64,000 nucleotides of DNA, from positions 128,001 to 192,000 of the IMG/VR virus record IMGVR_UViG_3300027917_000018. One strand, written 5' to 3'. Below, one piece after another: positions 38,601-40,848 of this stretch. The position numbers and the translations under genes were made by a program. This DNA comes from a virus. Its lineage: Duplodnaviria; Caudoviricetes. Within the stretch, counting starts at the first letter, position 1, and every line of letters begins with the position of its first letter. The notes beneath the pieces were generated by a model, which was not told the origin of the DNA, made no database searches, and worked only from the letters and a program-made list of their open reading frames with translations.

Positions 38601-38882
38601 TCAATGGTCTCCCGCCGGTCCCCTGCGGTAGCCGATGGAGCGCACGCGCAGCTTGCCGGGTTTGGCTGGGCTGAACGAGCAGTCGGTGGCCGTCATGTAG
38701 CTGATGGCCCGCTGGACAAGGTCACGGTCGGCTTCGTCGATGACGGCGTTGATGCTGGCTTTCCAGTCTTTGGGGTTGCAGACCTTGCCGAAGGCTGTCT
38801 GCATCTGCTCGCGTGTAAACGGATTGGCTCCGAGAATCGACGCGGGGTCGACCACGGTGAGGGTGATAGGTTCGTTTGTCAT
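38601..38882 (-). CDS. Hypothetical protein
   Basis: DWKASINAVI...AISYMTAT..RVRSIGYRRGP; start at ATG 38882 inferred. Confidence 0.6.
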   Translation of the reverse strand: MTNEPITLTVVDPASILGANPFTREQMQTAFGKVCNPKDWKASINAVIDEADRDLVQRAISYMTATDCSFSPAKPGKLRVRSIGYRRGPAGDH

Positions 38883-38928
38883 AGCAGGGTCAAAGTAAGC
38901 CCTGGCCCTGCCGAAGTCAAAACCTTTT

Positions 38929-39381
38929 TTAAGAATTTTGTGAACCAACAACCGCCTGAGCCCGTTTGACATGCTGAGCCATTTCCCAGCTCGTGGCCTT
39001 GGCCCGTTGGCGGTCGTAAAGCATGTGCCGAGCCTTGTCCTGGAGCTGGAACAGCCAGTCCTTGTCCTGTTCGGCGCGGCCCAGGGCTTTCTGGACTGCG
39101 TCGGGGTAATCCCGCCTCAGCTCGTGGCAAAAGGCGTTGATGGCCTGTTTCTTGGAATCGGGCAGATTCCAGTGAAAGCCTGGACTGAGCCCGGCCTTGG
39201 CCTGGGCGCGATCCGCAATGCTTTGCTCGATGCGGCGGGCGAGCTTCTTATCCCGGATGCGCCGGGACAGCTCGGCGTACTCCTGCTTCCACTGGGCCGT
39301 CCATGCCAGGTAGGAGGTTTTGTCGGTGAAGGGCGGGCTTGGCCACGTCCCGAACTTTTCCATGCGTTCTTCGTGTGTCAT
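38929..39381 (-). CDS. Hypothetical protein
   Basis: ATGA overlap with the pth2 stop. Confidence 0.6.
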   Translation of the reverse strand: MTHEERMEKFGTWPSPPFTDKTSYLAWTAQWKQEYAELSRRIRDKKLARRIEQSIADRAQAKAGLSPGFHWNLPDSKKQAINAFCHELRRDYPDAVQKALGRAEQDKDWLFQLQDKARHMLYDRQRAKATSWEMAQHVKRAQAVVGSQNS

Positions 39382-39815
39382 AGGAGGTTCAACCGCCGGG
39401 TGATGTGTTGGACTTCGTGCTTCAATGAAGGACCGAACCCAAGGGCGGTGATCGTGGGACGGCCTTCAAAGAAATCGGGGCAGCCGCTGTCGACTACCAG
39501 GAAGTGGGGCACGCCCGCCTCGGCCAGGGCATCCCTGGTCTTCAGCAGGCGTTGCAGGGAGGCTCCCAGGCAGACTTTGGTGCCGGGGAGGTCCTGGGCA
39601 TAGGCCCTGGCCGCCTCCGAGCCCTCAGTGGCCAAATACGCGCCGAGGTAGGCATGTCCTGCCTGCGAGGCGATCTTGCCTGGAGCCATACCCAGGTCGG
39701 TACGCACGACGGCGTACAGACGGAGGACGGGGTCGGGGATTTACGTGAAGTCGGAAGACACGTCACCCGAGGGGATCGGGGACGGGGAACGGTCGGATAC
39801 TTACGTGAATTTCAC
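39378..39815 (-). CDS. pth2: Peptidyl-tRNA hydrolase, Pth2 family, with two in-frame TAA codons in an N-terminal extension
   Basis: Domain LYAVVRTDLGMAPGKIASQAGHA ... TKVCL ... VVDSG ... TITALGFGP; SD TAAGGA 8 nt before GTG 39815; in-frame TAA at 39803-39801 and 39743-39741; final stop TGA. Family call high confidence, start position moderate. Confidence 0.8.
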
Positions 39816-39823
39816 TGGGATGA

Positions 39824-39829
39824 TCCTTA
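39824..39829 (-). promoter_or_regulatory. Shine-Dalgarno TAAGGA for pth2 GTG 39815
   Basis: 8-nt spacer; the same TAAGGA precedes GTG 40848 in this operon. Confidence 0.6.
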
Positions 39830-39854
39830 AGCTATCAGGCTGTCTTTGTCAAGC

Positions 39855-39929
39855 TGGCGCTGCTGGCGGGAGTTGAACCCGCAACACGGGAGGTTAAAGC
39901 TCCCTGCTCTGCCGTTGAGCTACAGCAGC
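39855..39929 (-). tRNA. tRNA with anticodon UUA (ochre/UAA suppressor), CCA encoded
   Basis: GCTGCTG-TA-GCTC-AACGGCA-GAGC-A-GGGAG-CT[TTA]AC-CTCCC-GTGTT-GCGGG-TTCAACT-CCCGC-CAGCAGC-G-CCA; all four stems pair. Confidence 0.92.
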
Positions 39930-40381
39930 TTCAAAATCCTGGTTGTGCTGAAACCGGTCATGAGCGGGATGAAGCGGATTTCGCCGCCATTCTTGAGGAC
40001 CACGTCGCGCTCCCCTTTGTCCACCGTGTCGATGTTGTAGTCGTCGCCCTTGACCCAAATGGCCGGGCAAACCGTATCCAGAAAGCGCGTGGCGCGTTTA
40101 CCGCGAAAGACATACACCCAGTCGACGCATTCAAGTCCGGCCACCACGAAGGCGCGCAGAGCGGCTGGAAAAATCGGGCGGTCCGGCCCCTTGAGCATCC
40201 TGACCGACCGGTCGTCGTTGATACCGACCACCAGCTGCATCCCAAGTTTACGGGCCTCCTGAAGGAAGTGGACGTGGCCTGGGTGGAGGATGTCGAAGCA
40301 GCCGTTGGTGGCGACAGTTGCATGCCGGGCGCTATTGAGGCGCAGTTCCCGCACGTTCGTCAGCAGCTTTGGATTGTCCAT
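39920..40381 (-). CDS. HldE/RfaE domain II-like sugar-phosphate adenylyltransferase
   Basis: ATNGCFDILHPGHVHFL, VVGINDDRSVRMLKGPDRP, WVKGDDY, FSTTRIL; stop TAG lies inside the tRNA 5' end. Confidence 0.85.
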   Translation of the reverse strand: MDNPKLLTNVRELRLNSARHATVATNGCFDILHPGHVHFLQEARKLGMQLVVGINDDRSVRMLKGPDRPIFPAALRAFVVAGLECVDWVYVFRGKRATRFLDTVCPAIWVKGDDYNIDTVDKGERDVVLKNGGEIRFIPLMTGFSTTRILKLL

Positions 40382-40589
40382 GCTGACTAGAACGCGCCTC
40401 GTTGGCTAACCGCGTGTAAACGCGGGTGAAGTCCGGGTAGCCGTAGTCTCGTGGTTCTGTCACAGTCTTGGCTTGGCCGCACACACCGCACGTGCCTTCG
40501 TGCATGGTGGATGTGTTGAGTTGGCTAAAGCGGCCTCGGGCTTCGTGGGCGCATTCCGCGCACACCCAGCTAGGATATGGTTTGTCCAT
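40332..40589 (-). CDS. Small Zn-binding protein
   Basis: WVCAECA ... TCGVCG..KTVTEPRDYGYP; start uncertain. Confidence 0.45.
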   Translation of the reverse strand: MDKPYPSWVCAECAHEARGRFSQLNTSTMHEGTCGVCGQAKTVTEPRDYGYPDFTRVYTRLANEARSSQHGQSKAADERAGTAPQ

Positions 40590-40848
40590 GATGTCGTCGG
40601 TGGGGTTTGTATGAAGCAAGTCGTCGCAGTAAATCCAGGCGGACATAAGAGCCGCGCCGATTGCTCACAACGATGGCCTCGCGCATGGCGTTTACGAATT
40701 TGATTCGTGGATCGTCAGTCATCAAAGGATTGGTTGTCAGGACCAGCTCGATCAGGGCCACGAGGCTCTCGTAATCTAGCTTGTAGGTTTCCTCGATCAG
40801 GACACCGTCCGGGATTACTTCAATGGACGTTCCGTTAGGCAATTTCAC
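40570..40848 (-). CDS. Hypothetical protein
   Basis: SD TAAGGA 5 nt before GTG. Confidence 0.55.
   Translation of the reverse strand: MKLPNGTSIEVIPDGVLIEETYKLDYESLVALIELVLTTNPLMTDDPRIKFVNAMREAIVVSNRRGSYVRLDLLRRLASYKPHRRHHGQTIS

What the first reader, a model, noticed from the sequence alone, without database searches (positions are those of the whole stretch)
39378..39929. Ochre-suppressor tRNA gating a peptidyl-tRNA hydrolase through two in-frame UAA codons
Seen (minus strand): a tRNA with anticodon UUA ends 40 nt upstream of GTG 39815, which has an SD (TAAGGA, 8-nt spacer). The frame reads M-K-F-T-[TAA]-VSDRSPSPIPSGDVSSD-F-T-[TAA]-IPDPVLR-LYAVVRTDLGMAPGKIASQAGHA..., ending at TGA, which this tRNA cannot read. 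Both stops share the context TTC-ACG-TAA and lie 60 nt apart. No ATG/GTG/TTG lies between the second TAA and the conserved first strand LYAVVR. The rest of the window uses the standard code. Established: UUA anticodons read UAA (and UAG by wobble); very short ORFs promote peptidyl-tRNA drop-off; Pth recycles peptidyl-tRNA. Inference: Pth2 is made only when the charged suppressor outcompetes release factors twice, so this is a sensor or feedback switch coupling termination status (e.g. release-factor depletion or defence-induced translation stress) to tRNA recycling, with MKFT* as a minigene in the off state. I do not know of a description of this arrangement but cannot search.
Basis: partly seen in the sequence, partly recalled or inferred. 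Interest (0 to 1): 0.95.

Follow-up and report, generated by a model that had tools for sequence, protein, structure and literature searches.

The report
Ochre-suppressor tRNA gating a Pth2 gene
A 203-kb phage from marine sediment carries a single tRNA, one that reads the stop codon UAA, next to a peptidyl-tRNA hydrolase gene that can be translated only through two in-frame UAA codons; about 75 related loci do the same with UAG or UGA and a matching tRNA, so this looks like a real and, as far as I could find, unpublished translational switch.

Summary
A canonical tRNA(UUA) lies at 39855-39929(-) and is the only tRNA in the 202,975-bp virus record. It is followed by GTG 39815, MKFT, TAA, 19 codons ending FT, TAA, and then an intact Pth2 domain ending in TGA.

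TAA and TAG end about half of the phage's other genes, so the genetic code is not reassigned.

In 82 unique loci of this Pth2 clade, 76 have the same early in-frame stop or stops. The stop always matches the phage suppressor tRNA where one was found:
- TAG with CUA in 58 loci;
- TAA with UUA here;
- TGA with UCA in Agrobacterium phage Atu_ph07;
- TAG with CUA in its relative Phosso.

The closest relative, L074, has a colinear two-stop leader with TAG, TAG and CUA. No amber locus ends pth2 with TAG (0 of 82). Codons between the gate and the first strand show synonymous-only variation and no conserved start.

I conclude that Pth2 synthesis needs the tRNA to read both stops. Why the two are coupled (compensation, feedback or timing) remains inference.

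Earlier agents of this scan noted the amber version in at least 40 other genomes. I found no paper describing it. This window is the only ochre version among the loci I surveyed.

The parts
39855..39929 (-). Ochre-suppressor tRNA, anticodon UUA (39897-39895). Class I, with a 5-nt variable loop, G1-C72, G73 and an encoded CCA. It is the only tRNA in the 203-kb genome.
   Evidence: ARAGORN; Rfam RF00005 at 66 bits; anticodon kept in diverged relatives X4 and X6.
39816..39854 (-). Spacer between the tRNA and the leader. It holds TTGACA (39852-39847) and the SD-like TAAGGA (39829-39824), which lies 8 nt before the GTG.
   Evidence: Sequence. TTGACA sits at the same relative place in L074, L062, L064 and L066, before a -10-like hexamer. 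X4 keeps TTGACA but changes AAGGA. The strict sigma-70 scan finds no promoter here.
39801..39815 (-). Leader start and first gate: GTG AAA TTC ACG TAA (M-K-F-T-stop), followed by G at +4.
   Evidence: Sequence. The colinear L074 leader reads ATG CAA GAC ACG TAG. Across the family the codon before the gate is Thr in 69 of 87 gates and the +4 base is a purine in 86 of 87.
39744..39800 (-). Inter-stop segment of 19 codons (VSDRSPSPIPSGDVSSDFT).
   Evidence: Same length in L074 and 10 of 19 residues identical, four of them through synonymous codon differences.
39741..39743 (-). Second gate: TAA preceded by TTC ACG, followed by A at +4.
   Evidence: Sequence. The equivalent codon is TAG in L074, L002, L062 and L066, all in an F-T-stop-V-x-D context.
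39378..39740 (-). Pth2-type peptidyl-tRNA hydrolase domain (120 aa), ending in TGA, which a UUA anticodon cannot read.
   Evidence: Pfam PF01981, E 8.5e-20. Profile against PDB 2zv3, 1wn2, 1q7s and 1xty, E 2e-37 to 3e-31. AF2 pLDDT 96.3. Foldseek TM 0.81-0.85 to solved Pth2 structures. K22, H29 and D84 are conserved.
38929..39381 (-). Conserved downstream gene (150 aa, helical). Its ATG overlaps the pth2 TGA (ATGA), so it may be translationally coupled to read-through.
   Evidence: Homologs lie directly after pth2 in at least 60 unique loci. AF2 gives a helical hairpin at pLDDT 84.7. No Pfam hit, only weak PHROG hits, and no PDB match.
39920..40381 (-). Upstream cytidylyltransferase-like gene. 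Its TAG stop lies inside the first 10 nt of the tRNA, which places the tRNA within a same-strand gene row.
   Evidence: Pfam PF01467, E 3e-17; phrog_7878; sequence.

Best explanation
**What it is.** This is a self-contained translational gate. Ribosomes start at GTG 39815 and meet UAA after four codons. Release factors end translation there unless the phage's own tRNA(UUA), encoded 39 nt upstream, inserts an amino acid. The same choice recurs 20 codons later. Only ribosomes that pass both stops make the Pth2-type hydrolase, which then carries a 27-residue N-terminal extension. Passing both stops may also drive translation of the ATGA-coupled helical protein downstream. Translation ends at UGA, which this tRNA cannot read.

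**What follows.** Pth2 output should scale roughly with the square of suppression efficiency.

**What is shown.** The anatomy is shown, as are its conservation and the covariation of stop and anticodon. The segment after the gate is under coding constraint, and the fold is a genuine Pth2 fold.

**What is inferred.**
- The tRNA is expressed and charged.
- Read-through actually occurs.
- The purpose of the gate. I think it most likely matches the supply of peptidyl-tRNA hydrolase to the activity of a suppressor that also reads through normal stop codons, which would raise stalled ribosomes and peptidyl-tRNA drop-off.

A neutral route from the common amber form exists. A C34-to-U34 change in the anticodon still reads UAG by wobble, after which TAG can drift to TAA.
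For: **Anatomy.** This is the only tRNA in the 203-kb genome, and I found no other convincing TAA-interrupted gene.

**Covariation across 82 unique loci.**
- 76 loci are gated.
- TAG with a same-strand tRNA(CUA): 58 loci.
- TAG with no tRNA on the contig, which is mostly short: 16 loci.
- TAA with UUA: 1 locus, the window.
- TGA: 1 locus, Atu_ph07.
- No mismatched pair.

**Cultured phages.** Atu_ph07 reads MIGEHF-TGA and has a tRNA(UCA) (PMC6102473). Its relative Phosso reads MKY-TAG and has two tRNA(CUA) genes.

**Sister leader.** L074 is 62% identical and is built the same way: 4 codons, stop, 19 codons, stop, 7 codons. It uses TAG, TAG and CUA.

**Real terminator of pth2.** TGA 49, TAA 33, TAG 0 of 82. 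TAG ends 29 of 186 neighbouring ORFs, giving P about 1e-6.

**Coding constraint between the gate and beta1.**
- Asp is GAC 35 and GAT 35.
- Arg and Leu each use six codons.
- Canonical start codons number 0-12 of 82 at each position.

**Context of the gates.** The +4 base is a purine at 86 of 87 gates, against 43 of 114 at this genome's true TAA/TAG gene ends. Thr precedes 69 of 87 gates, against 7 of 114 true ends. From my own knowledge, a purine after the stop favours suppression (Bossi 1983; Miller and Albertini 1983).

**Embedded tRNAs.** In 11 loci no start lies between the tRNA and the gate. The frame stays open through the tRNA gene in all 11, against 25 of 49 loci that have such a start (p 0.002).

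**Controls.** Distant Pth2 genes with a normal ATG have no suppressor tRNA nearby: L006, L007, Xoo-sp13, Phabba, phiM19, prophi86-1, EBPR siphovirus 2, Sandalphon and archaeal MAGs.

**Fold.**
Against: - There are no RNA, charging, ribosome-profiling or peptide data. All six sequencing runs that hold this DNA are DNA runs.
- A UUA anticodon should also read the TAA and TAG that end 114 of 220 phage genes. Suppression must therefore be weak, timed or context-dependent. With two gates and weak suppression, very little Pth2 would be made.
- The amino acid inserted at the stops is unknown. Similarity to other tRNAs did not reveal the isotype.
- 16 TAG loci and L001's 171-kb contig (49% complete) show no suppressor tRNA.
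- Only one ochre lineage was found, so the TAA-UUA pairing rests on one event plus its close relatives.
- The reason for coupling Pth2 to suppression is not established by any result here.
Confidence: 0.75

Rival explanations
1. Negative-feedback homeostat. The gate works as described, but the Pth2-like enzyme, with or without the helical partner, acts on the suppressor itself or on its acylated or peptidyl form. High suppression would then produce the enzyme that lowers suppression, much as release factor 2 controls its own synthesis through an early UGA.
For: - The effector is placed behind a sensor of its own cognate tRNA's activity.
- The phage needs to limit read-through, because half of its genes end in TAA or TAG.
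- In 11 relatives the tRNA gene lies inside the read-through frame. Translating ribosomes could there interfere with tRNA maturation, which would itself be a negative loop.
- The residue after the DxG motif differs from the family consensus Thr (DSGCP here). This hints at altered specificity.
Against: - Known Pth2 enzymes hydrolyse N-blocked peptidyl-tRNA off the ribosome, not free aminoacyl-tRNA (my own knowledge).
- No tRNA-specific feature was identified.
- The catalytic-type Lys and Asp and the whole fold are ordinary Pth2.
Confidence: 0.15
2. Minigene device. The short leader (MKFT-stop here, MT-stop in most relatives) is the functional product. Like the lambda bar minigenes, it would promote peptidyl-tRNA drop-off, with the Pth2 behind it made by some other route.
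For: - Most relatives have a literal two-codon ORF, ATG ACG TAG.
- The last sense codon is Thr in 79% of gates.
- Two-codon minigenes and Pth are functionally linked in lambda and E. coli (my own knowledge).
Against: - This does not explain why the stop type tracks the phage tRNA anticodon.
- It does not explain why the frame continues into Pth2 in every locus.
- It does not explain why the codons right after the stop are under coding constraint.
Confidence: 0.05
3. Pth2 starts downstream of both stops, independently of the tRNA. The start would be CTG 39719, GTG 39707 or another non-canonical site, and the in-frame stops would be incidental.
For: A CTG and a GTG do exist there. Gene callers and GenBank annotators start many homologs at the internal Met or at a Leu codon.
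Against: - The position of CTG 39719 is Leu, encoded by all six Leu codons, and is CTG in only 6 of 82 loci.
- The position of GTG 39707 is Val and is GTG in 44 of 82 loci.
- A start at 39707 would remove strand beta1.
- Residues upstream of these codons are conserved through synonymous changes.
- Covariation with the tRNA would be left unexplained.
Confidence: 0.04
4. The gene is broken (a pseudogene), or TAA is a sense codon throughout this phage.
For: Two in-frame stops in a gene usually mean decay or an altered genetic code.
Against: - 76 of 82 relatives keep an early stop while the 120-aa domain stays intact and conserved.
- TAA ends 56 of 220 genes, often directly before the next start.
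- No other gene needs TAA read-through.
Confidence: 0.01

Closest known systems
Stop-codon recoding in phages with phage-encoded suppressor tRNAs (TAG or TGA read as sense in crAss-like, Lak and other phages; e.g. PMC7886860, PMC9523058; Borges et al. 2022, from my own knowledge)
   Same: A phage-encoded suppressor tRNA makes in-frame stop codons in phage genes readable. Expression of those genes therefore depends on the tRNA.
   Different: - In those phages many genes, often the late ones, are recoded and the stop is largely lost as a terminator. Here the code is standard, with TAA and TAG ending half the genes.
- Here exactly one gene is gated, and it lies next to the tRNA.
- The gate sits in the first few codons.
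- The stop is UAA, which I have not seen reported as reassigned in phages.
prfB (release factor 2) autoregulation through an early in-frame UGA
   Same: An early in-frame stop in a translation-factor gene turns the efficiency of termination at that codon into the amount of protein made.
   Different: prfB bypasses the stop by a +1 frameshift and senses its own product. Here the stop is passed by a dedicated tRNA in the same frame, and the product is a hydrolase, not a release factor.
Archaeal and eukaryotic peptidyl-tRNA hydrolase 2 (Pfam PF01981; PDB 2zv3, 1wn2, 1xty, 1q7s)
   Same: - Same fold, TM 0.81-0.85.
- Same length.
- Conserved Lys, His and Asp positions.
- The native N-terminus lies directly at strand beta1.
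   Different: - Identity to solved structures is only 25-33%.
- The residue after the DxG motif differs from the family consensus Thr.
- The protein carries a read-through leader.
- It is always followed by a helical partner gene.
- Activity is untested.
Lambda bar minigenes and host Pth (rap) dependence
   Same: Very short ORFs next to a stop codon, linked functionally to peptidyl-tRNA hydrolase in a phage context.
   Different: bar minigenes are free-standing and harmful when Pth is scarce. Here the short ORF continues in frame into the hydrolase gene, and its stop matches a phage tRNA.
Orphan suppressor tRNAs reported in jumbo phages (XacN1 CUA, PMC5852040; Atu_ph07 UCA, PMC6102473)
   Same: Phage suppressor tRNAs in genomes that use the standard code.
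   Different: Those papers named no target. The XacN1 authors looked and found none. The GenBank CDS of both phages starts at the internal Met, which hides the gate.

Membership tests
Peptidyl-tRNA hydrolase 2 (PTH2, PF01981) | Sequence match to the family model above its curated cut-off, over the full length | tested here: met
   71.5 bits against a cut-off of 23, over profile positions 2-115 of 115. The profile of 61 relatives hits PDB Pth2 chains at E 2e-37 to 2e-29.
Peptidyl-tRNA hydrolase 2 (PTH2, PF01981) | Pth2 alpha/beta fold | tested here: met
   AF2 pLDDT 96.3. Foldseek top hits are 2zv3, 1wn2, 3erj, 1q7s and 1xty, with TM 0.81-0.85 and probability 1.00.
Peptidyl-tRNA hydrolase 2 (PTH2, PF01981) | Conserved active-site Lys (GK motif) and Asp (DxG motif). 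These are Lys18 and Asp86 of S. solfataricus Pth2 by my recollection of Fromant et al. 2005, which I did not re-read. | tested here: met
   K22 is invariant, H29 is invariant, and D84 is present in at least 90% of the 61 aligned relatives. The residue numbering in the reference enzyme was not verified here.
Peptidyl-tRNA hydrolase 2 (PTH2, PF01981) | Hydrolysis of N-blocked aminoacyl- or peptidyl-tRNA | not testable with these tools
   Needs an enzyme assay.
Nonsense-suppressor tRNA | Canonical cloverleaf with an anticodon complementary to a stop codon | tested here: met
   ARAGORN anticodon UUA. Rfam tRNA at 66 bits, with all stems paired.
Nonsense-suppressor tRNA | Expressed, aminoacylated and active in decoding | not testable with these tools
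   No RNA run holds the locus. The only support is indirect, from covariation with the gated stops.
Initiator tRNA (considered: would the stop serve as a start codon?) | A 1-72 mismatch and three consecutive G-C pairs at the base of the anticodon stem | tested here: not met
   The tRNA has G1-C72 paired, and its anticodon stem is GGGAG/CUCCC with an A-U at 30-40.
Genome-wide stop-codon reassignment (recoded phage) | The stop codon occurs in frame in many genes and is rarely used as a terminator | tested here: not met
   TAA ends 56 of 220 genes. No other conserved gene is interrupted by TAA.
Suppressor-gated pth2 cassette (the scan's own unpublished class) | - An early in-frame stop in the pth2 leader.
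- A matching suppressor tRNA nearby.
- A non-cognate real terminator.
- A conserved helical gene downstream. | tested here: met
   All four features are present in the window. They recur in relatives.

The most novel reading that the evidence does not exclude
The cassette is a stand-alone translational circuit that measures stop-codon read-through in the infected cell. A phage suppressor tRNA rewires termination on host and phage messages. In-frame copies of its cognate stop at the head of the pth2 operon convert the current suppression level into the dose of a tRNA-recycling enzyme and its partner protein. With two gates, that conversion is steeper than linear. In some relatives the ribosome must read through the tRNA gene itself, so translation and tRNA maturation would compete on one transcript and close an autoregulatory loop. 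If so, the orphan suppressor tRNAs of standard-code phages would have a defined target and a purpose.
Probability: 0.3. Interest if true: 0.9.

Novelty: new variant of a known kind. Interest (0 to 1): 0.8.

Why it matters
- **A target for orphan suppressor tRNAs.** Published genome papers on standard-code phages could not explain these tRNAs. The XacN1 authors searched for targets and found none, and the Atu_ph07 authors named none. This arrangement gives them a concrete natural target.
- **A compact natural switch.** It shows gene expression set by the efficiency of stop-codon suppression. All three stop codons are used in different lineages, and the ochre form found here is rare.
- **It is testable now.** Atu_ph07 on Agrobacterium tumefaciens C58 (TGA/UCA) and Phosso on Sinorhizobium meliloti (TAG/CUA) are cultured phages that carry the same gate.
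- **It corrects annotation.** Gene callers and GenBank start these genes at an internal Met and lose the first strand.
- **It links two fields.** If the functional reading holds, it ties phage manipulation of translation termination to peptidyl-tRNA recycling.

Tried and rejected
- **tRNA isotype.** Similarity to about 110 phage tRNAs of known anticodon was inconclusive. Every tRNA was about 70% alike. All that can be said is that the tRNA is class I with G73, so it is not of the Leu, Ser or bacterial Tyr type.
- **Initiator-tRNA reading.** Rejected on the acceptor and anticodon stems.
- **RNA structure in the leader.** The z-score is -0.76, so nothing special.
- **Promoter scan.** The strict sigma-70 scan found no promoter at 38800-40700. 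Whether TAAGGA is an SD or lies in a -10 region stays open.
- **Other TAA-gated genes in the 203-kb genome.** Seven crude candidates all translate to wrong-frame-like sequence. The two other TTCACGTAA sites are each followed almost at once by a second stop.
- **More ochre examples.** A pattern search in IMG/VR gave five tRNA(UUA) genes. None lies beside a gated pth2. One lies about 490 nt downstream of an ungated, distant PTH2-like gene.
- **Phage release factor or Pth1 gene.** None in the genome.
- **Backup TGA after TAA/TAG gene ends.** No enrichment.
- **Downstream helical protein.** No Pfam hit, only weak PHROG hits and no PDB fold match.
- **Complex prediction of Pth2 with that protein.** It gave no answer, so it counts neither for nor against binding.
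- **RNA evidence.** All six runs holding the locus are DNA runs.
- **Literature.** Six searches found no description of the arrangement.
Full report
**What is in the window**

On the minus strand, ARAGORN finds one tRNA, at 39855-39929, with anticodon UUA. Rfam's tRNA model scores it 66 bits against a gathering score of 29. It has a perfect acceptor stem, G1-C72, G73, a five-base variable loop and an encoded CCA. It is an elongator-type tRNA, not an initiator type.

Thirty-nine bases downstream lies GTG 39815, preceded by TAAGGA with an 8-nt spacer. The frame reads as follows:
- M-K-F-T, then TAA at 39803-39801;
- 19 sense codons ending F-T, then TAA at 39743-39741;
- I-P-D-P-V-L-R-L-Y-A-V-V-R..., ending at TGA 39380-39378.

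Pfam PTH2 matches from six residues after the second TAA, over profile positions 2-115 of 115, at E 8.5e-20. No canonical start lies between the second TAA and GTG 39707.

The window is bases 128001-192000 of a 202,975-bp IMG/VR virus record. This tRNA is the only one in the whole record.

**The code is standard**

A crude gene call gives 220 genes, ending in TGA (106), TAG (58) and TAA (56). A screen for other genes interrupted by TAA found nothing convincing. The genome has no release-factor gene and no Pth1 gene.

**The sequence is not an assembly error**

A contig from a second marine-sediment sample is identical over 39300-40000. Diverged relatives in two further sediment studies keep the UUA anticodon. 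One of them, X4, also keeps the first TAA, although it carries seven substitutions and a 4-nt insertion in the 39-nt spacer.

**Related loci**

The first seven IMG/VR relatives of the protein already showed the pattern. The five closest (40-57% identity) have one or two in-frame TAG codons after a short ATG leader. Four of these have a tRNA(CUA) just upstream. The two most distant, at 36% identity, have a normal ATG and no suppressor tRNA.

I widened the search with a profile against viral contigs, metagenome contigs and GTDB genomes, then ran one script over all loci. Of 82 unique loci:

| Class | Loci |
|---|---|
| Gated, in all | 76 |
| TAG with tRNA(CUA) on the same strand | 58 |
| TAG with no tRNA found (mostly short contigs) | 16 |
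| TAA with tRNA(UUA): this window | 1 |
| TGA: Atu_ph07 | 1 |
| Stop and anticodon mismatched | 0 |

Of the six remaining loci, two are in fact gated by inspection. They were misclassified by the script because a Val GTG directly follows the stop.

The Verrucomicrobia MAGs carry the amber form. The archaeal Pth2 genes are ordinary.

**Cultured phages**

Atu_ph07 reads M-I-G-E-H-F-TGA and then runs in frame into its Pth2. It encodes a tRNA(UCA), which its genome paper reports without naming a target (PMC6102473).

Phosso, a related jumbo phage with the same gene order, reads M-K-Y-TAG instead. As predicted, it has two tRNA(CUA) genes, one of them 4.6 kb upstream of pth2.

In both GenBank records the CDS starts at the internal Met and loses strand beta1.

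Other cultured-phage Pth2 genes have normal starts: Phabba, phiM19, prophi86-1, EBPR siphovirus 2, Sandalphon and Xoo-sp13.

**The sister of the window**

L074 is 62% identical and has a leader of the same build: four codons, stop, 19 codons, stop, seven codons, then the conserved Tyr. Its inter-stop peptide is recognisably homologous, sharing S-P-I-P and S-S-x-F-T. Both of its stops are TAG and its tRNA is CUA.

The window therefore differs by three concerted changes. A neutral path exists, because a UUA anticodon still reads UAG by wobble.

**Is the stretch behind the stop translated?**

Across the 82 loci the codons between the gate and strand beta1 vary almost only synonymously:
- Asp is GAC 35 and GAT 35.
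- Arg uses six codons.
- The Leu before the Tyr uses six codons.
- Canonical start codons number 0-12 of 82 at each position.

The window's CTG 39719 is a Leu codon and is CTG in only 6 of 82 loci. GTG 39707 is a Val codon. A start there would delete beta1, which spans residues 6-13 of a model with pLDDT 96.3. Solved Pth2 proteins begin exactly at this strand.

The residues before the stop (F-T) and after it (V-S-D) are also kept through third-position changes among L002, L062, L066 and the window.

**Further independent signs of read-through**

- The real terminator of pth2 is never TAG. The counts are TGA 49, TAA 33 and TAG 0 of 82. TAG ends 29 of 186 neighbouring ORFs, giving P about 1e-6. 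The window uses TGA, the only stop that a UUA anticodon cannot read.
- The base after the gate is a purine at 86 of 87 gates. It is a purine at 43 of 114 of this genome's true TAA/TAG gene ends. Thr precedes 69 of 87 gates, against 7 of 114 true ends. From my own knowledge, a 3' purine favours suppression.
- In 11 loci no start lies between the tRNA and the gate. In all 11 the frame stays open through the tRNA gene, and 9 of them reach an in-frame ATG-leader-TAG in front of the tRNA. The frame is open in only 25 of 49 loci that have their own start (p 0.002).

**The protein**

A profile of 61 relatives hits solved Pth2 structures at E 2e-37 to 2e-29. The model superposes on 2zv3, 1wn2, 3erj, 1q7s and 1xty with TM 0.81-0.85. 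Lys22, His29 and Asp84 are conserved. In this clade the residue after the DxG motif differs from the family's usual Thr. Activity is untested.

**Neighbours**

A helical protein gene follows pth2 directly in at least 60 unique loci. In the window it is 38929-39381, and its ATG overlaps the pth2 TGA. Its model is a helical hairpin with no PDB match.

A P-loop polynucleotide-kinase-like gene lies nearby in six loci. In Atu_ph07 and Phosso it is fused to a metallophosphatase, and Atu_ph07 also has an RnlA-type RNA ligase close by.

**Mechanism**

The gate itself is well supported. The purpose is inferred. I favour dose-matching: the enzyme that recycles peptidyl-tRNA is made in proportion to the activity of a tRNA that also extends normal proteins and so increases stalled ribosomes and drop-off. 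A negative-feedback reading remains possible, as does a pure timing role. Because half of the phage's own genes end in TAA or TAG, suppression must be weak, timed or context-dependent. This is the main unresolved tension.

**Known or new?**

Six full-text searches found no paper that links a suppressor tRNA to an in-frame stop in a Pth2 gene. The XacN1 paper states that no target of its CUA suppressors could be found.

Earlier agents of this scan have noted the amber form in at least 40 other genomes. I re-derived the pattern independently here. Among the loci I surveyed, the ochre form with two gates occurs only in this window.

Noticed in passing
L062:4860-5000; L066:4090-4250; L064:4860-5000 (also L118, L130, L134, L135, L100, L141): In these relatives the tRNA(CUA) gene lies between two in-frame TAG codons. 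A consensus TTGACA-N16-TATAAT-like promoter sits 7-9 nt before the first ATG. The only route into pth2 seems to be translation through the tRNA sequence itself.
   Followed up: partly
window 38929-39381 (-): A conserved helical-hairpin protein of unknown function follows pth2 in at least 60 loci. Here its ATG overlaps the pth2 stop (ATGA). It has two conserved helices, with motifs K-E-x-Y-L-A-Y-R-x-x-W-K and A-Q-R-Q-Y-L.
   Followed up: partly
L009 (MF403008.1 198552-198884) and L011 (PV764938.1 176653-176985): The GenBank CDS of the Pth2 genes of Atu_ph07 and Phosso start at the internal Met and omit strand beta1. Many predicted proteins in the 1.8-billion-protein library likewise begin at that Met.
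   Followed up: yes
L173:938-1800 (IMGVR_UViG_3300028920_000026): Another 190-kb viral contig has a tRNA(UUA) about 490 nt downstream of a distant PTH2-like gene (22 bits, just under the cut-off). That gene has a normal ATG and no gate.
   Followed up: partly
L005:2366-2950: Several tRNA-like 3' halves (GGTTCRAnTCC...CCA) are spaced about 100-150 nt apart and are not called by ARAGORN. They may be interrupted or degenerate tRNA genes.
   Followed up: no
L002:2600-2975: An HNH-endonuclease-like ORF is inserted between the tRNA(CUA) and pth2. A second copy of the leader (MNNTFT-TAG) restores a start in front of the gate.
   Followed up: no
window 40332-40646 (-) and L074:1-90: A small Cys-rich ORF with the motif PRDYGYPDF lies upstream of the tRNA in both the window and its sister locus. 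The synteny therefore extends beyond the cassette.
   Followed up: no
L062:3943-4422; L066:2630-3112; L067:3054-3539; L068:1319-1780; L009:3749-5005: A P-loop polynucleotide-kinase-like gene recurs near the cassette. In Atu_ph07 and Phosso it is fused to a metallophosphatase. Together with an RnlA-type ligase in Atu_ph07, this gives an RNA-repair flavour to the neighbourhood.
   Followed up: no
whole genome G000: At true gene ends, TAA and TAG are followed by a purine in 43 of 114 cases. TGA is followed by a purine in 63 of 106 cases (p 0.002). This could be the ordinary termination-context bias or protection against the phage's own suppressor.
   Followed up: partly
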